The notes under the pieces: generated by a model | Databases searched by the model: none | Told to the model about the DNA's origin: nothing | The model's input: the letters and a program-made list of their open reading frames with translations, nothing else | In this document: positions 19,398-25,677 of the stretch, piece by piece | How positions within the stretch are numbered: the stretch's first letter is position 1 | How the letters are laid out: every line of letters begins with the position of its first letter | Sequence record: KF620435 | DNA from: Shigella phage pSb-1 | DNA length: 64,000 nucleotides | Direction: 5' to 3' (one strand) | Program-made: the position numbers and the translations under genes

Positions 19398-20986
19398 TCA
19401 CACAATGTATGAACGTAGTGGGTTAACACTATCTTCTTCTTCATCATCCCACATTGGGTCGCCCTTATTATCCACCATAGTCATACCTGCTTGTGGTTTC
19501 CAAGGATTGAGATAACCCAGCATGGAGATAGTATCAATACAGTCATCCTTACCTTTAATTCCATTAATGGTAGCTAGTTTAATCTGGCCCATGAACAGAC
19601 CCATAATAGTTGAGTCTCTCAACTCTTCCGGGAAGTACATCTTACCAGCTTTGAACCATGGAACTACCAGGTTAAAGCGTGACAGCTTAGAAGTTACAGG
19701 ACGGATGCCTGGCTTACCACCTTCAGAGGATGCAAAGTTAAAGAAGACATTACGGTTAATCATTTCTTTCTGAAGGAGTGAAATGAATCCATTTTGCTGT
19801 CCTGTGATTTCGACCCCAACGTTTTGTGGTTGGTATTCTTGAACCAGACGGAACAGGTCATCAAAGTTTTTATCCATAAGCTGACGATTAGCCACACCAT
19901 CAATCCAGAACCAATCTCCATTAGAACTATAAGCCCAAACTGATATGACACTGTAGTCACTGGTCTGTTTCTCCGAAGTAGCAAAGTCGGTTGTGATGTA
20001 ATAGTTGTAGCAGGACTTCATCCTTAACAGTTGCTGTCTGCTATACCATCTAATTTCACTATCCTGAACCAGTCTCTCATCTTCGGAGCTAATACGGAGC
20101 ATAAGTTCCTGATAGAAGCCTGCCAGCTTACCAGTCTTAACTGCCATATCGTATTGAGCTTTGATGTAATCGTAAGAGAATCGGTCATCCCATGCACCCT
20201 GAAATTCTTCCCTACTACAAGGAAACTTCTCACACACAGGCCACACGTTTACATCCCATGCACCAGACTCAACTGCTTCAATGATAATGTCTTCCTTATT
20301 AAAGGGAGTACCATTGAAAATTACTTTACGACGGGTCGGGTCAAGAGCATGGTTCACACCTTTATAAACAGTATCTTTAATAGCTTCCATGCTAGTCTTG
20401 GAGTTAGCATCCCCGTCACTAATCAAGTCATCCAGTACACAGAGTGTTGGACGCTTACCATATATCTTCGTACCACGAAGACCTGTCTTAGCACCAAATA
20501 GCTTAACACCAAGTCGATGCCCCTCTACATTACGAAACTCCAATAGGTTATCCGTAAAGGTAGCTTCGGGTATCCATTGCTGAAGGAACTCACTATTCTT
20601 GTAACGAAACTCAATGTTCTTACGTGCAGACTTAGCACCGTTATCCATTGAGTCAGATACGTAAATCATTCCTTCTACCTTACCCAGCTTGGTAAGTGCC
20701 CAAACACTGCCAGGAACAAAGTAAAGTATTCCATGAACACAGCAGTCTTACCTGCACCACGGAAACACAGATTAACTACATACTGGTTCGGACTAATCAT
20801 CTTATCCAACATCTTCAGGTGAACTGGTGGTGTTTTGTTGGATTCGCCCTCTTTGCCATTAACCAACTTAATAAAGTTGGCAAAGGTAAGAGCAAACTGA
20901 CTAGGAACATAGTTAGATGAATTAAGGTGGGAGTAATCCACCTGGTCTAGCCATTCATCCAGTTCCTGTTTAATTAACTCAGACAT
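19398..20986 (-). CDS. terL: terminase large subunit (T7 gp19-like), frameshifted (fragments 20675..21007 and 19398..20669)
   Basis: Walker A-like FRGAGKT in N-terminal fragment; Walker B-like LCVLDDLISD in the second; restoring one T at ~20700..20706 gives a continuous protein; ATG 20986 with GAGGA RBS. Confidence 0.75.
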
Positions 20987-21668
20987 CTGTAATGTCCTCA
21001 TCTGCACGTACTAGTTTAGAACCAGCAACCTCTTTGGTAGGTACGCCACTATTGATTGCATTAATCTGCTGTTCAGCTAATGCAGCAAGTGTTGCCTTGA
21101 GGTCAGTCAACCCAGAGTTCTCTCTTAAGTCCAGATTGATATTCGTTACCTGGTCTTTTGGTTTAGCTAAGTGAGTAAGGATAGAGTTAGCTGCATCACA
21201 TCTTACCTTCTCACTTGCTGCTGTAGTCATCAGTTCAACCTGAACGTTGATTGCCTTCTGATAATTATCCTGGTTTACAATCCACACTGGAACCAAACTT
21301 TGTTCCATGATGAGGTTAACTAGCTTACCTCTGTGGTAAGCAGATACGTAAGCACTAATATCTTTCTCACTGGTTCCCCGTGCTACAAGTTCTGCTTGTC
21401 GGTTAGGGAATGTCTTGAAGTAGGCTTCCTTATTTGAGTAGCCCATATGTTTGTAAGTCACATACTGAACTGCATTCATGTAGTCCTGTGTCTTAAACTT
21501 ACCTTCCTTCATTACACCAGAGTAGGAGATAAAGTTTTCACGAAAGGACTCAGCAACCAGTTGGTCTTGGGTTATGTTGTTAATCGTGTCTACCAACTCC
21601 TGGGTCACACTGTTTTTGAAGTTAGCAGGTAAGGCATTAATAATCTGCTGCTTAGTTAGTTCACTCAT
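20979..21668 (-). CDS. terminase small subunit candidate (229 aa)
   Basis: Directly upstream of and overlapping terL start; first gene of the minus-strand block. Confidence 0.35.
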   Translation of the reverse strand: MSELTKQQIINALPANFKNSVTQELVDTINNITQDQLVAESFRENFISYSGVMKEGKFKTQDYMNAVQYVTYKHMGYSNKEAYFKTFPNRQAELVARGTSEKDISAYVSAYHRGKLVNLIMEQSLVPVWIVNQDNYQKAINVQVELMTTAASEKVRCDAANSILTHLAKPKDQVTNINLDLRENSGLTDLKATLAALAEQQINAINSGVPTKEVAGSKLVRADEDITDV

Positions 21669-21839
21669 ACTTATCTCGCTACAAAGTTATGTCTATTAAA
21701 GAAGATTCTTTTCTTGGGGTGAGATACCCCTTGAAGAAACGATACCATACAGTTACACTTTAGTCATGATATAGAAAAAGTTCATGATACTAAATAGTAT
21801 GTAATGTTCCGATGACCCTATTCCCTAAAGGAGTAACCT

Positions 21840-22130
21840 TTGAGAATCTATATGAGAGTCCACGACTCTAAAGATGAATACAAGGAGCTAGACCACACTA
21901 AGGCTGGTATTCTTTCAGATGATATTATCATTACTCACGATGAAGATACCTATCATGAATTGGCTGGGATGATGCTTTTAGAGAATCGACCCGGCATTAA
22001 AATCTTAGAACCAAGAGAAACTTACTCTTTAGAAAAACATCCTTCATCTCTTGTGTTCTTCACAAAATTACCTCATAGTGTCTCCGTCAGGCGAAGCAAA
22101 GACAGTGTTCGGATGACGGTGACGATGTGA
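21840..22130 (+). CDS. early protein, paralog family member 1
   Basis: TTG start with AAGGAG RBS; shares motif around THDEDTYHELAGMMLLEN with the next five ORFs. Confidence 0.45.
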   Translation: MRIYMRVHDSKDEYKELDHTKAGILSDDIIITHDEDTYHELAGMMLLENRPGIKILEPRETYSLEKHPSSLVFFTKLPHSVSVRRSKDSVRMTVTM

Positions 22131-22329
22131 TTAGTCATGCCGCCTAGTAGACAGTGGCGGTACTCGTAAAGAGTTAATAACTTCTACAGTCAGGGTTGCC
22201 CGGCTCCTTTCCTACCTAGTAGGCTAACGATACACATGTATCTAGGGTGATGAACTGACCCGTGATTGAAAACGGTAAGGGTAGAGTCGAGAGGCTCTAC
22301 CCCATTTCTTTTTCAGGAGGTATGCAAAA

Positions 22330-22728
22330 ATGAGCATCTACGCTTTTGATATTGATATTACCGGAGTACTTCGTAAGCAAGAACCCTACTACTTAGGGGA
22401 ACCAGAGATAGTAAGTAAGTTCCTAACACCTAAACAAATGGTCTTCCTGCCTGATTGTGAAGAATCCCATGAGATAGTTGGTTCATTCTTCTTAAGTAAC
22501 CTGCAAATCAATACACGTATACTTACTGAACCAGTTGTGTATGACCTTACTAAGTATGCAGACTTCGAAACATTCTTCCCAGGAGTCAAGTTCTATAAAG
22601 TACCTGGTTGGGAAATGATAGCTGATCATAACGTCTTTAATAAAACACTTTCCATTTACTTCAGACCTATTCCTAAAGGAAGGAAAATCCATCATGAAAT
22701 TCATAATGACCATCCCCAGTTTTGCTGA
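22330..22728 (+). CDS. early protein, paralog family member 2
   Basis: Motif FLPDCEESHEIVGSFFLSN. Confidence 0.45.
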   Translation: MSIYAFDIDITGVLRKQEPYYLGEPEIVSKFLTPKQMVFLPDCEESHEIVGSFFLSNLQINTRILTEPVVYDLTKYADFETFFPGVKFYKVPGWEMIADHNVFNKTLSIYFRPIPKGRKIHHEIHNDHPQFC

Positions 22729-23005
22729 AGAGCCTATGTATACAACTGACTTCACTTTAGAAGAAGTCATGAACAGTAATCCCCAGCAAGTAATCCTGGT
22801 TCCTACCTTAGAGGACTACCATGAAGTAAGGGGTCAACTCTTCTTAGCAGGTAATGACCGTAAGGTTGTGTGTATCATTCCTCCTTCTGTCTATACCAAT
22901 AGTGGTGCGTATGATGCTCTACCTTTTATGTTGATATCTGATGACTACCAATGGGATAGTCGTTATGAGAATGAGGAATACCGTTACTACTATGTAAGGA
23001 AGTAA
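22694..23005 (+). CDS. early protein, paralog family member 3
   Basis: Motif LVPTLEDYHEVRGQLFLAGN. Confidence 0.45.
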   Translation: MKFIMTIPSFAEEPMYTTDFTLEEVMNSNPQQVILVPTLEDYHEVRGQLFLAGNDRKVVCIIPPSVYTNSGAYDALPFMLISDDYQWDSRYENEEYRYYYVRK

Positions 23006-23008
23006 GTT

Positions 23009-23332
23009 ATGCACTTCTACTCATTAGTTGCTCTAAGTACAAGTTGCTATCGCAGTAAAGTAACTAAACGGGATTGTTTAAATGGTAAACTGGATGGAAC
23101 TACTATTTTATATGAACCAAGTGAAGAAGCCGATGAGTTCATAGGTACTTGTCTAATGTTAGGCATACCCATCACTTTCACTAAGATAGATACATCAATT
23201 GAGATATCTGAGTTTGCAAGGGTATACATCTTATCAACTGCTGAACCTATGGTAGTAACTACCTTAACTGGTAGACTTATTACCCTCTATCCTTCTACCT
23301 CATATTTATCTAGCGACGAGTGTGCCCTATGA
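23009..23332 (+). CDS. early protein, paralog family member 4
   Basis: Motif LYEPSEEADEFIGTCLMLG. Confidence 0.4.
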   Translation: MHFYSLVALSTSCYRSKVTKRDCLNGKLDGTTILYEPSEEADEFIGTCLMLGIPITFTKIDTSIEISEFARVYILSTAEPMVVTTLTGRLITLYPSTSYLSSDECAL

Positions 23333-23667
23333 ATAGAGTACTATACCCCCATCAATATAAGGATGAAGTCTCTGTTTACTCCGAGAATGTCAATAAAGCT
23401 ATTGATTGGTTACTCCCACAAGACTGTCATATGCTTATGCTACCTGGTGAGTTAGCAGATAGTACCCGTGGTTCCATCCTTCTTCTCAATAGTCCAGCTA
23501 AGTTAACCATCATTAACCCAGGGGAATCCATAAAGATACCTGCTGGTGAATCTGCATTCTTGTTCTTTGAACCAAGGATAGAAGAAGGGTTCGATGGGCT
23601 TACTATGGATAGTAGACCCAATAAAGATTTTAAAAGAGTAAGGATTATATCTCATGAAACTTACTAA
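23320..23667 (+). CDS. early protein, paralog family member 5
   Basis: Motif LPGELADSTRGSILLLN. Confidence 0.4.
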   Translation: MCPMNRVLYPHQYKDEVSVYSENVNKAIDWLLPQDCHMLMLPGELADSTRGSILLLNSPAKLTIINPGESIKIPAGESAFLFFEPRIEEGFDGLTMDSRPNKDFKRVRIISHETY

Positions 23668-23980
23668 GATAGGTTATGCTGGTGGTCCTAATCCCACCAG
23701 ACACACAACCTTACAAAACCTTCTTGGAAGGCTCACTCCTATTATCCTTGTACCGGATGAGCAAACACTTCACGAAGTTAAGGGGTTAGCTCTAATATTA
23801 GGCAAAAAGGTTATTGTAAAAGTACAAGAACCAGGAAAAGAATTACCATGGCCTTCCTCCTTATACTCCCCGTGGCATGTGAATACGGATAAGTACACTC
23901 TTACCTTCACCACTAGTGATACTTTCCAATCACCACATTTGGTATATGCTCCCTCCTATTTAACTACTTATAAGGATTAA
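23654..23980 (+). CDS. early protein, paralog family member 6
   Basis: Motif LVPDEQTLHEVKGLALILGK. Confidence 0.45.
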   Translation: MKLTKIGYAGGPNPTRHTTLQNLLGRLTPIILVPDEQTLHEVKGLALILGKKVIVKVQEPGKELPWPSSLYSPWHVNTDKYTLTFTTSDTFQSPHLVYAPSYLTTYKD

Positions 23981-23981
23981 C

Positions 23982-24116
23982 ATGTGGTATGTAATAGTTA
24001 AGGGCTTACCTGAACCAGTGATAGTACACAGCCTGGCTTTCGTAGAAGTGGGTAGACCATTACTTGTAAATGGTAAGCTGTATGAGGTTTTAAGTATCAA
24101 ACGCTATGATGAATAA
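23982..24116 (+). CDS. small hypothetical protein (44 aa)
   Basis: ATG with AAGGA RBS; followed by hairpin and T-run. Confidence 0.25.
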   Translation: MWYVIVKGLPEPVIVHSLAFVEVGRPLLVNGKLYEVLSIKRYDE

Positions 24117-24342
24117 GAGATAAATAGGAGGTAGATAGATACCTCCTCATAATATTTTTGCATGTCAAAATTGTGATAGCTATGTATGGCTACAGTGGTG
24201 TGGCTGGGGCTACACCCTTACACTCAACCATCCCCCCCGGTATGTTGACGGTGTAGCCACTACCCTACCCCACCTTACACGTTACACATGCTCCGCATGT
24301 TATGGACATGTTGTCCTATCATCAACTATTGGAGCTATCATC

Positions 24343-24510
24343 ATGACTACTCAAGCTACTGTACGTATGACCGCAGGAACTTTACTTGGTACTGTTAACT
24401 CAGCTGCTACTACTGTTGCAGATACATTCGGTACAGCAACTAAAGCAGTAGGTATGCTTAATTCATATGTAAGTACTATGCAGAGAAACAAGCCATTCGT
24501 ACTAAATTAG
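24343..24510 (+). CDS. small Ala/Thr-rich protein (55 aa), below the track size cutoff
   Basis: ATG 24343 with GGAG RBS; frame checked codon by codon to TAG 24508..24510. Confidence 0.3.
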   Translation: MTTQATVRMTAGTLLGTVNSAATTVADTFGTATKAVGMLNSYVSTMQRNKPFVLN

Positions 24511-24672
24511 AAATGCATACATTCGTTAATAAACTGGCAGAGGAAACAGCTATGACTGAGACTCTGCGTAAGAAAAGTATTGAGGAATTCTGCAAGGATT
24601 CAGAAAACGCTCGTATCTATAACGCAGAATATTCCAAAGTAATTGACATCCTGACTAAAGACTAAGTCACCT

Positions 24673-25169: not shown

Positions 25170-25297
25170 AAACCAAGACGCTCCGCGTCTTATGGATGAT
25201 GTAAATGCATCCACTAATCATTGAACTTTTATCCTTTTGTTTGGGTGTTCTCACCGACGAGTTCACCCGTAAATCACATAAATCTGGAGAGTACAAA

Positions 25298-25677
25298 ATG
25301 TCTATTCAAAAATTCACTTTCGGTCAATCTAACGCTGCTGCTACCACTGCTAAAGCTGACAAACCAAAAGCTCAGTTCTGGCTGAACATTGGTTATGTAG
25401 CTAATGAAGCTCTGATGATGAGAAATTCATCTCTCTGCCTACTGGTATTCCACTGGATACTCAGGAACCACTGCCTACTAATAGCAGCAATGCTGACTTC
25501 CGTGCTATGCGTTGTGCACAGAATGACTTGCTGGAACAGTTAATCGCATATGCTCAGAACCTGGAACCAGGTGAAGAAGGTATCATTAACCTGCAAGTTC
25601 AACTTCGTCGTGTGAAAGCAGAGGCTGCTGACATCCCAGCAGACGAGAATAAATATGCTCGTAAACTGACTTTCTAA
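25298..25677 (+). CDS. hypothetical early protein (~125 aa), frameshifted near 25410
   Basis: ATG 25298 with GGAGAG RBS; N-terminal frame then continues in the -1 frame to TAA 25675..25677; TT-to-T loss at ~25411 explains it. Confidence 0.4.

What the first reader, a model, noticed from the sequence alone, without database searches (positions are those of the whole stretch)
21840..23980. Tandem array of six paralogous small genes at the start of the early region
Six consecutive ORFs of 96-132 aa with overlapping or abutting start/stop codons share a core motif (ITHDEDTYHELAGMMLLEN; FLPDCEESHEIVGSFFLSN; LVPTLEDYHEVRGQLFLAGN; LYEPSEEADEFIGTCLMLG; LPGELADSTRGSILLLN; LVPDEQTLHEVKGLALILGK) but are otherwise divergent. 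A diversified paralog family as the first-transcribed genes is the pattern expected for host-takeover or anti-defence factors; it has no assigned function here.
Basis: partly seen in the sequence, partly recalled or inferred. Interest (0 to 1): 0.65.

Follow-up and report, generated by a model that had tools for sequence, protein, structure and literature searches.

The report
Right-end paralog gene array plus RNA
Six small neighbouring genes of an N4-like coliphage are real, fast-evolving copies of one protein fold of unknown function, but they sit at the last-injected end of the genome rather than in the early region, and the first gene is separated from the rest by a conserved pseudoknotted RNA that is in no RNA database.

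Summary
The window is a Gamaleyavirus (N4-like, Schitoviridae) genome joined across its ends. The six ORFs exist as described and are homologous. p1, p2, p3 and p6 converge in iterated HMM searches with no decoy hits. p5 and p4 join through profile-profile matches (78% and 73%). AlphaFold models of p3 and p4 have the same order of elements and hit the same uncharacterised N4-like phage proteins. p1 is N4 gp70 and p2 is N4 gp71.

The positional reading is wrong. The physical left end lies at about 24201, so the array is at the right end, which enters the cell last. All three virion-polymerase hairpin promoters lie downstream (24287, 25177, 29009).

The 199-nt gap between p1 and p2 is not empty. 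It holds a roughly 185-nt pseudoknotted RNA ending in a terminator, conserved from N4 to Achromobacter phages and absent from Rfam.

Function is not established. My best guess is a set of middle-phase, non-enzymatic binding proteins.

The parts
21731..21759 (+). Candidate promoter for p1: TTGAAG, 17-nt spacer, TACACT (sigma-70-like). The hexamers are conserved from N4 to Gamaleyavirus while the spacer varies. It overlaps the conserved box TTAsACTTTAGwC (21753-21765).
   Evidence: Alignment of the gp69-gp70 intergenic region from 10 phages. The box occurs only once in the window. It falls below the scanner's threshold. Inferred, not shown.
21840..22130 (+). p1, the ortholog of N4 gp70 (96 aa). 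The TTG start aligns with the N4 ATG and lies 5 nt after the GGAG.
   Evidence: phmmer to N4 gp70 gives 1e-17. It matches phrog_7213. It is a superfamily member. dN/dS is 0.24. An ortholog exists in Achromobacter Axy24_078.
22131..22313 (+). Conserved structured RNA of about 185 nt that starts right after the p1 stop codon. Its elements are:
- hairpin P1 (22140-22160);
- a pseudoknot between the P1 loop GUAGA (22147-22151) and UCUAC (22183-22187);
- an invariant AAUAAC box (22176-22181);
- a multi-helix junction (about 22189-22259) with an invariant anti-SD-like CUCCUU (22204-22209);
- a hairpin (22260-22275);
- an intrinsic terminator (22279-22303) with a U-run (22305-22313).
   Evidence: - RNAalifold predicts 42 pairs.
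- The covariance model finds full-length matches at the same position in N4, the KP8 clade and Achromobacter phages.
- 97.6% of cells are paired and 33 of 42 pairs show compensatory changes; 0 of 500 shuffles reach this.
- The pseudoknot was not in the model. It is 95% paired, with 3 of 5 pairs compensatory.
- Many G-U pairs indicate RNA of the + strand.
- There is no Rfam match.
22330..22728 (+). p2, the ortholog of N4 gp71 (132 aa). Its SD (AGGAGG, 22315-22320) follows the terminator U-run directly.
   Evidence: phmmer to N4 gp71 gives 2.6e-8. It matches phrog_9160. It is a superfamily member. dN/dS is 0.21.
22694..23005 (+). p3 (G7C gp71.1 type, 103 aa). It overlaps the end of p2 by 35 nt.
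   Evidence: It matches phrog_11661. The AF2 model has pLDDT 87.5 and pTM 0.80.
23009..23332 (+). p4 (G7C gp71.2 type, 107 aa). This divergent member has lost the motif His.
   Evidence: It matches phrog_12099. It aligns to p5 along its full length. hhalign to p5 gives 73%. The AF2 model has pLDDT 86.1 and the same element order as p3, and it hits the same BFVD set, including the p3 ortholog.
23329..23667 (+). p5 (112 aa from the ATG at 23329; the listed ORF starts at the GTG at 23320). Its start forms an ATGA overlap with the p4 stop.
   Evidence: It matches phrog_12606. hhalign to the superfamily gives 78%, E 2e-5. It is present in 15 of 26 close relatives.
23654..23980 (+). p6 (108 aa). It overlaps p5 by 14 nt.
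   Evidence: It matches phrog_16338, the hub of the cross-hits. It is a superfamily member. It is present in 13 of 26 close relatives.
23982..24116 (+). p7, a 44-aa ortholog of N4 gp72. It is the last gene of the operon and is not a member of the paralog family.
   Evidence: phmmer to N4 gp72 gives 1.5e-18. It matches phrog_19797.
24126..24147 (.). Bidirectional terminator-like hairpin closing the operon, about 50 nt before the physical genome end.
24196..24206 (.). Junction of the physical genome ends. The homolog of the N4 and G7C left terminus begins here. In the virion, the right-hand copy of the terminal repeat would follow the array at this point.
   Evidence: G7C position 6 maps to window 24206, and the G7C record marks positions 1-1160 and 71758-72917 as 'contains terminal repeat'. 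The St11Ph5 record ends at window position ~24202. The N4 left end aligns here.
24287..24299 (+). First true early promoter, the homolog of N4 vRNAP P1: CATGC-TCC-GCATG followed by TTATGGA. Two more lie at 25177 and 29009. These are listed as context and are not part of the array.
   Evidence: Hairpin scan compared with the N4 P1 and P2 sequences.

Best explanation
The locus is the right-end accessory module of an N4-like (Gamaleyavirus) phage. It reads gp70, then a conserved pseudoknotted RNA with an intrinsic terminator, then a translationally coupled operon (p2 to p6 plus gp72).

Shown:
- The six proteins are tandem duplicates of one small alpha/beta domain of about 100 aa. It is built as a strand, an acidic loop, a helix carrying the (H/A)(E/D)xxGxx(L/F)L motif, and then a beta-sheet.
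- The duplication is old. N4 gp70 and gp71 are already paralogs, and Achromobacter phages carry an equivalent array.
- The distal part of the array is reshuffled between close relatives by cassette gain, loss and replacement.
- The genes are real and under purifying selection, but they evolve about 6-8 times faster at the protein level than the adjacent gp69.
- They lie on the last DNA to enter the cell and have no vRNAP hairpin promoter.

Inferred:
- They are transcribed from a promoter upstream of gp70, either from a promoter recognised by host sigma-70 RNAP or by phage RNAPII, in the middle phase.
- The RNA and terminator make gp70 the main product and admit only read-through, possibly regulated, into p2 to p7.
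- No residue other than one Gly is conserved across all six, and there is no similarity to any enzyme. The proteins most likely act as non-catalytic binders of host factors, or of factors from competing phages, with each paralog tuned to a different target or target variant.
For: - Identity and position.
- Homology of the six proteins.
- Breadth of the family: (Klebsiella KP8, Achromobacter, Pseudomonas Zuri). In an exhaustive search only 30 clusters among 1.84 billion representatives matched, all of them small proteins. Seven of the ten looked up sit on 20-73 kb contigs, four of these 67-73 kb. One is Klebsiella phage KP8.
- Variability and selection.
- No enzymatic or known family.
- Operon anatomy and terminators.
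- The RNA element.
- Timing by analogy: the LUZ7 right-end ORFan cluster is transcribed mid-infection (PMC9163698), and vRNAP promoters are restricted to the first-injected left end (PMC4496689).
Against: - There are no expression data for this phage, or for N4, covering these genes.
- The promoter assignment rests only on conserved hexamers.
- The LUZ7 cluster is positionally analogous but not sequence-related.
- Nothing ties the proteins to a particular target. dN/dS of about 0.2 shows no gene-wide positive selection, so 'arms-race' diversification is not demonstrated.
- gp70 is conserved across subfamilies, which fits a core phage function at least as well as an accessory one.
- The p4 model was built from an alignment that included the other paralogs, which could bias it towards the shared fold. 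Its hits to independently built BFVD models argue against that bias.
Confidence: 0.55

Rival explanations
1. One reading: the six genes are the first-transcribed (early) genes and act in host take-over or against defences that attack incoming DNA.
For: In the circularised map they lie immediately upstream of the early region, in the same orientation. They are small, diversified and unannotated.
Against: - The physical end lies between them and gp1.
- There is no vRNAP hairpin promoter upstream or inside.
- A terminator closes the operon before the end.
- This end enters the cell last (PMC4496689).
Confidence: 0.07
2. The proteins serve a phage-internal function at the genome end, such as replication, recombination, end protection or packaging. 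gp70 and the RNA would be the conserved core, and the paralogs would be accessory subunits.
For: - gp70 and the RNA are conserved in position from N4 to Achromobacter phages.
- The module is adjacent to the terminase genes and to the terminal repeat.
- The authors of the LUZ7 study suggest a replication-related role for its right-end cluster (PMC9163698).
- The genes are under purifying selection.
Against: - Copy number and membership vary freely between near-identical phages (N4 has 2, G7C has 4, PhAPEC7 has 8), which is unusual for machinery.
- There is no nucleic-acid-binding signature. The pI ranges from 4.4 to 9.2.
Confidence: 0.17
3. The proteins act in phage-phage competition or superinfection exclusion. 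They would be expressed once the whole genome is inside and would block incoming relatives.
For: Variation resembles alleles and cassettes among co-circulating close relatives. The genes are positioned late in entry. The proteins are cytoplasmic, small and non-enzymatic.
Against: There are no membrane segments or signal peptides, which many exclusion proteins have. There is no direct evidence. The data do not distinguish this view from the best explanation.
Confidence: 0.1
4. The ORFs or the shared motif are chance features or annotation artefacts.
For: The window carries apparent 1-nt indels in other genes, so its sequence quality is imperfect.
Against: All six are conserved as intact ORFs in dozens of phages. 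dN/dS is 0.16-0.25. The HMM, hhalign and structural evidence agrees.
Confidence: 0.01

Closest known systems
N4 gp70, gp71 and gp72 (right-end ORFs of coliphage N4), and G7C gp70, gp71, gp71.1 and gp71.2
   Same: These are direct orthologs in the same position and orientation: p1 is gp70, p2 is gp71 and p7 is gp72.
   Different: N4 has only two members and the window has six. Neither the paralogy of gp70 with gp71 nor any function is noted in the database records or the papers I read. PHROGs splits them into six separate families.
The 'small cluster of short ORFs at the 3' end' noted in N4-like genomes: JWAlpha/JWDelta (PMC3915230), KP8 (PMC6950046), and LUZ7 gp87-gp115 (PMC9163698)
   Same: The architecture is the same: rightward small ORFs between the terminase genes and the right terminal repeat. 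In Achromobacter Axy24, four of five such genes belong to the same family. In LUZ7, 17 of 29 form a tandem paralog family, and the cluster is transcribed mid-infection (PMC9163698).
   Different: The LUZ7 ORFs are about 65 aa long and show no sequence similarity to this family. None of these papers reports paralogy, a fold or the RNA element.
Hypervariable accessory or anti-defence gene clusters at phage genome ends, such as the T7 0.x genes and the T5 pre-early region (from my own knowledge)
   Same: The genes are small, fast-evolving, variably present and unannotated, and they are clustered at a genome end.
   Different: Those clusters are at the first-injected end and are expressed first. 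This one is at the last-injected end. I did not screen the proteins against any anti-defence collection.
Transcription-attenuating leader RNAs and riboswitches (aptamer plus intrinsic terminator upstream of an SD)
   Same: A multi-helix, pseudoknotted RNA with invariant single-stranded boxes ends in a terminator placed directly before the SD of the next gene.
   Different: It has no Rfam match, no identified ligand and no demonstrated alternative antiterminator fold. It also forms the 3' UTR of gp70, so it could equally be a 3'-UTR-derived sRNA or a stabiliser.

Membership tests
N4 gp70/gp71 right-end family (PHROGs 7213, 9160, 11661, 12099, 12606, 16338) | Significant sequence homology to N4 gp70 or gp71, or to their PHROG profiles | tested here: met
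   Each ORF hits its own PHROG at 1e-45 to 1e-65. p1 matches N4 gp70 at 1e-17 and p2 matches N4 gp71 at 2.6e-8.
N4 gp70/gp71 right-end family | Position between the terminase small-subunit-like gp69 and the right terminal repeat, transcribed rightward | tested here: met
Single paralog superfamily comprising all six ORFs | Mutual homology detectable by profile methods without decoy hits | tested here: met
   p1, p2, p3 and p6 converge. p5 matches the superfamily at 78% and p4 matches p5 at 73%. The direct p4-to-superfamily match is only 5%, so p4 is linked transitively and by structure.
Single paralog superfamily comprising all six ORFs | Same three-dimensional fold | tested here: met
   Models of p3 and p4 have the same order of elements and retrieve the same BFVD proteins, including each other's orthologs. 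p1, p2, p5 and p6 were not modelled here; orthologs of p2 and p6 are among the BFVD hits.
N4 early genes (vRNAP regulon) | Located at the first-injected left end, downstream of a DNA-hairpin promoter (5-7 bp stem, 3-nt loop, conserved flanks) | tested here: not met
   Such hairpins occur only at 24287, 25177 and 29009, and none lies in 21600-24210. The array is left of the physical end at ~24201.
N4 middle genes (RNAPII regulon) | Transcription by the gp15/gp16 polymerase with gp2 from AT-rich middle promoters | not testable with these tools
   No usable promoter consensus was available. Only an analogy with LUZ7 mid-infection transcription exists (PMC9163698).
Known defence proteins (PADLOC) and annotated families in Pfam, NCBIfam and PHROGs | Profile match to a described family | tested here: not met
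   There was no hit in Pfam, NCBIfam or PADLOC. The PHROG matches are all 'unknown function'. No dedicated anti-defence library was available.
SF2 helicase RecA-like domain | Significant structural match plus Walker or helicase motifs | tested here: not met
Any Rfam family (for the p1-p2 spacer RNA) | Covariance-model match | tested here: not met
   There was no match at E<=1 apart from a chance miRNA hit elsewhere, and none in the N4 or Axy24 copies.
Riboswitch or attenuator leader | Conserved aptamer-like structure with covariation, followed by a terminator upstream of the regulated ORF | tested here: met
Riboswitch or attenuator leader | Mutually exclusive antiterminator fold and a ligand or protein effector | not tested
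   I found no alternative pairing. This needs in-line probing or read-through assays.

The most novel reading that the evidence does not exclude
The module could be a regulated cassette. In this reading, the pseudoknotted RNA after gp70 is a new class of sensor or attenuator (riboswitch-like or protein-responsive) that gates read-through into a Schitoviridae-wide arsenal of fold-novel, diversifying inhibitor proteins. These would act in mid or late infection, for example against abortive-infection systems or competing phages.
Probability: 0.15. Interest if true: 0.75.

Novelty: new member of a known kind. Interest (0 to 1): 0.5.

Why it matters
Most genes of N4-like phages that are being developed for therapy are unannotated.

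This analysis unites six separate 'hypothetical' PHROG families, together with N4 gp70 and gp71, into one fold family. That family recurs in multiple copies at the right end of phages infecting Escherichia and Achromobacter. Structural matches also occur in phages of Klebsiella and Pseudomonas. It gives a defined, variable module to test for host-range and defence-evasion effects.

It also corrects a tempting misreading caused by circularised assemblies. These genes are on the last DNA to enter the cell, not the first.

The conserved pseudoknotted RNA with a terminator between gp70 and the paralog operon is a candidate new RNA family. It is a concrete handle on how the module is expressed.

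Tried and rejected
- Pfam, NCBIfam, PADLOC and a PDB sequence search gave nothing.
- The afdb50 fold library was unavailable.
- The first search for homologous proteins listings were each swamped by one subfamily: gp70, then p3, then p4. They served as AF2 alignment material but not for reaching beyond the family.
- The conserved box TTAsACTTTAGwC upstream of p1 was tested as a possible repeated (middle) promoter motif. It is unique in the window.
- The sigma-70 scanner found no site at 9 of 12 or better upstream of p1.
- A MAFFT and RNAalifold run across all clades of the spacer failed to recover the middle helices. A clade-restricted alignment plus a covariance model was needed.
- I considered and rejected a stop-codon read-through signal for the RNA, because N4 has UGA followed directly by UAA.
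- I rejected a DNA cruciform or minus-strand RNA because of the many G-U pairs.
- The CRISPRi-ART paper holds no N4 gene-fitness data. Literature searches found no functional study of gp70-72.
- The LUZ7 right-end ORFs were tested for homology to this family and none was found.
- Six of the pattern hits in IMG/VR were chance matches that the covariance model did not confirm.
Full report
**What the window is.** The region matches Gamaleyavirus phages (N4-like, Schitoviridae) at 84-91% nucleotide identity. The closest records include EC1-UPM, St11Ph5 and VTCCBPA_322.

In linear records whose ends were determined or set by convention, the six ORFs sit at the extreme right end. They lie after the leftward terminase genes gp68 and gp69 and are named gp70, gp71, gp71.1, gp71.2 and so on. 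N4 itself has gp70, gp71 and gp72 there.

G7C position 1 maps to window ~24201, and the G7C record marks positions 1-1160 and 71758-72917 as 'contains terminal repeat'. The N4 left-terminal sequence aligns at the same place. The window is therefore an assembly joined across the physical ends. The array is the last unique DNA before the right terminal repeat, not the start of the early region.

**The observation.** All six ORFs and the quoted motifs are present. A seventh ORF of 44 aa (23982-24116) is the gp72 ortholog.

Junctions from p2 to p7 are overlaps or gaps of 1-3 nt, which fits one translationally coupled operon. p1 is different. It is followed by 199 non-coding nt that contain an intrinsic terminator (22279-22302 plus a T-run), and the p2 Shine-Dalgarno sequence comes directly after it. 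A second, bidirectional terminator-like hairpin (24126-24147) closes the operon about 50 nt before the genome end.

**Are the six homologous?** PHROGs files them in six different families, but with cross-hits from p1 and p3 to p6's family and between p2 and p3.

I collected about 60 arrays from GenBank phages, IMG/VR and metagenomes, anchored on gp69. I then ran iterated HMM searches against a database of 1,111 ORFs that included all six-frame ORFs of the window and opposite-strand decoys.
- Searches seeded from p1, p2, p3 or p6 each converged on the same ~110-117 proteins. All of them were array ORFs, and no decoy was hit. Both N4 gp70 and N4 gp71 were included.
- p4 and p5 stayed separate at this threshold. 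With the deeper profiles, hhalign gives 78% (E 2e-5) for the superfamily against p5 and 73% (E 3e-5, 62 columns) for p4 against p5. A further family, F6 (a singleton in PhAPEC7), bridges both groups at 85% and 40%.
- MAFFT aligns p4 and p5 along their full length, with invariant E, A, G, L and S residues and a shared C-terminal R-(L/I)-IT..P-SY motif. That motif also resembles the C-terminus of p6.
- A joint alignment puts the motif of all six in one register.
- AlphaFold2 models of p3 (pLDDT 87.5, pTM 0.80) and p4 (pLDDT 86.1, pTM 0.75) have the same order of elements: strand, short helix, strand, long helix, then five strands.
- Foldseek against BFVD returns the same set of uncharacterised proteins for both models. 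The p4 model hits the EC1-UPM ortholog of p3, and both hit p6-type and gp71-type proteins.

I conclude that the six are one fold family, with p4 and p5 forming its divergent branch. One family found in other phages' arrays (F5, absent from this window) is unrelated.

**How far the family reaches.** By sequence it is small.
- Three word-seeded searches of 5.8 billion proteins returned only unannotated proteins without Pfam domains. The longest host contigs are about 70-74 kb.
- An exhaustive HMMER search of 1.84 billion cluster representatives found only 30 clusters at E<=1e-3, all of 54-132 aa. Ten were looked up. Seven sit on 20-73 kb contigs, four of these 67-73 kb. One is Klebsiella phage KP8.

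By structure it extends to other Schitoviridae genera, with several copies in each: KP8 (4 proteins), Achromobacter JWAlpha, JWDelta and the Axy phages, and Pseudomonas phage Zuri.

In Achromobacter phage Axy24, the five rightward genes lying between a short leftward block that begins with gp69 and the 410-bp terminal repeat include a clear gp70 ortholog. Three more carry the motif, with hhalign probabilities of 50-90%.

Papers on JWAlpha and KP8 mention a small right-end cluster of short ORFs transcribed in a separate direction, and the KP8 paper calls it a conserved feature of N4-like genomes. Neither analyses it further (PMC3915230, PMC6950046).

**What the proteins resemble.** There is no match in Pfam, NCBIfam or PADLOC, and no PDB sequence match.

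Across all six proteins only one Gly is invariant. The His of the HE..G motif is replaced in p4 and p5. pI ranges from 4.4 to 9.2, and no Pfam, NCBIfam or PADLOC match suggests secretion or membrane insertion. This argues for binding modules rather than enzymes, but it is an inference.

**Evolutionary behaviour.**
- In 26 relatives whose gp69 is 92-100% identical at the protein level (25 of them 97% or more), orthologs of p1 to p6 are only 60-97% identical. The medians are 81, 81, 84, 67, 90 and 82%.
- p5 is present in 15 of the 26 relatives and p6 in 13.
- The head of the array (gp70, RNA, p2, p3, p4) is constant in Gamaleyavirus. The tail is a shuffled set of p5-, p6-, F5- and F6-type cassettes.
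- Totals run from 2 in N4, through 4 in G7C, to 8 in PhAPEC7.
- Pairwise dN/dS is 0.16-0.25 for every family, against 0.03 for gp69, and no pair exceeds 1.

These are functional coding genes under relaxed or partly diversifying constraint. Gene-wide positive selection is not shown.

**Expression.** N4 early promoters are DNA hairpins. By comparison with N4 P1 and P2, the window has exactly three such sites, at 24287, 25177 and 29009. All lie to the right of the physical end. No comparable hairpin lies in 21600-24210.

The review PMC4496689 states that these promoters are constrained to the left end, which is injected first. It also states that injection of the rest of the genome is completed only once the middle transcription machinery has been made. 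The array therefore cannot be first-transcribed.

Upstream of p1, alignment from N4 to Gamaleyavirus shows conserved TTGAAG and TACACT hexamers 17 nt apart with a variable spacer between them. This is a candidate sigma-70-type site. The associated box is unique in the window, so it is not a repeated middle-promoter motif.

In the distant N4-like phage LUZ7, 29 small rightward ORFs occupy the same position, and 17 of them form one paralog family unrelated in sequence to this one. That cluster is covered by mid-infection transcripts (PMC9163698). By analogy I assign this array to the middle phase. This assignment is inferred, not shown.

**The spacer RNA.** The gap between p1 and p2 is conserved in every relative, including N4.
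- The window copy folds at -60.8 kcal/mol, z = -2.45.
- RNAalifold on seven Gamaleyavirus-type copies predicts 42 pairs: a 5' hairpin, a multi-helix junction, a further hairpin and the terminator. Ten of the pairs carry compensatory changes, and controls are clean.
- A covariance model built from those seven copies finds full-length matches at the same position and on the same strand in the KP8 clade (38-42 bits), N4 (30.5 bits, E 4e-6), Achromobacter Axy24 (45.9 bits, exactly between the gp70 ortholog and the next paralog), two further phage contigs of 72-74 kb found by pattern scan in IMG/VR (39 and 45.9 bits), and one metagenomic contig.
- On the resulting 12-sequence alignment, which is fitted to the model, 97.6% of cells pair and 33 of 42 pairs show changes on both sides. 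Shuffles give 19.9 +/- 2.1 (0 of 500 reach the observed value), and slid controls give 5-10.
- The many G-U pairs indicate an RNA of the array's strand.
- A pseudoknot that was not part of the model links the first hairpin's loop (GUAGA, 22147-22151) with UCUAC (22183-22187). It is 95% paired, and three of its five pairs covary (UA/GU/CG, AU/GC, AU/UA). Its covariation score is 0.418 against 0.141 +/- 0.05 for shuffles.
- AAUAAC and an anti-SD-like CUCCUU are invariant single-stranded boxes.
- Rfam 15 has no match in the window, N4 or Axy24 copies.

The RNA begins at the gp70 stop codon and ends in a terminator immediately upstream of the next gene's SD. It is therefore both the gp70 3' UTR and the leader of the paralog operon. 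The simplest reading is an attenuator that makes gp70 the major product and limits, or regulates, read-through. An sRNA derived from the 3' UTR is an alternative. I found no antiterminator fold and no effector.

It is a diversified accessory family of unknown function, but it is not early.

The function remains open. I favour middle-phase, non-catalytic binders of host factors or of factors from competing phages, with about 0.3 confidence for that step. A phage-internal role at the genome end is the main rival.

The most novel item in these coordinates is the conserved pseudoknotted RNA.

Noticed in passing
window 22131-22313 (+): A conserved pseudoknotted RNA of about 185 nt with an intrinsic terminator lies between p1 (gp70) and p2 (gp71). 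It is found at the same position in N4, the KP8 clade and Achromobacter phages. It shows strong covariation and is not in Rfam.
   Followed up: yes
window ~20688 (minus-strand gene 19398-21007): The terminase large subunit (gp68) is split into two ORFs (19398-20669 and 20675-21007) by a 1-nt deletion relative to G7C and St11Ph5 (CCCAG-CTTGG against CCCAGGCTTGG).
   Followed up: partly
window 24343-24665 and 25205-25677 (+): gp1 and gp2 also appear split by single-base frameshifts. gp1 appears as 24343-24510 plus 24513-24665. gp2 appears as 25205-25543 plus 25507-25677, with its frame lost after GYVANEA in an A-run. This is seen when compared with intact N4 gp1 and gp2. Three indels in essential genes within about 5 kb suggest sequencing or assembly errors rather than pseudogenes.
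   Followed up: partly
window 24287, 25177, 29009 (+): Three N4-type virion-RNAP hairpin promoters are present. Each has a 5-7 bp stem ending in GC and a TCC loop, followed by TTATGGA or TTTTGG. They are homologs of N4 P1, P2 and P3.
   Followed up: partly
window 21716-21730 (+): A conserved hairpin GGGGT-gagat-ACCCC, flanked by TTCTTTTCTT and TTGAAGAA, lies in the gp69/gp70 divergent intergenic region. It is conserved in N4 but weaker in the KP8 clade. Its role is unknown; it could be a late-promoter or regulatory element.
   Followed up: no
P0008, P0061, P0339: Homologs of gp70 and p4 are annotated on a 2.76-Mb Enterococcus faecium contig. This is most likely contamination or a chimeric assembly containing an N4-like coliphage.
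   Followed up: no
window 23009-23332; P0333: p4 is 100% identical to psb1_0032 of Shigella phage pSb-1, although no phage record matched the 2.7-kb query spanning the array (21500-24200) at more than 95% identity. This points to a mosaic origin of the cassettes.
   Followed up: no
L064 (LUZ7 FN422398 68698-74345): Seventeen of the 29 right-end LUZ7 ORFans (gp87-gp115) form one tandem paralog family by phmmer. It is unrelated in sequence to the family studied here but sits in the same genomic position.
   Followed up: partly
L001 6172-6501, L002 5828-6142 and others (family F5): A further cassette of about 104 aa occurs in many relatives' arrays but is absent from this window. It shows no profile similarity to the paralog family.
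   Followed up: partly
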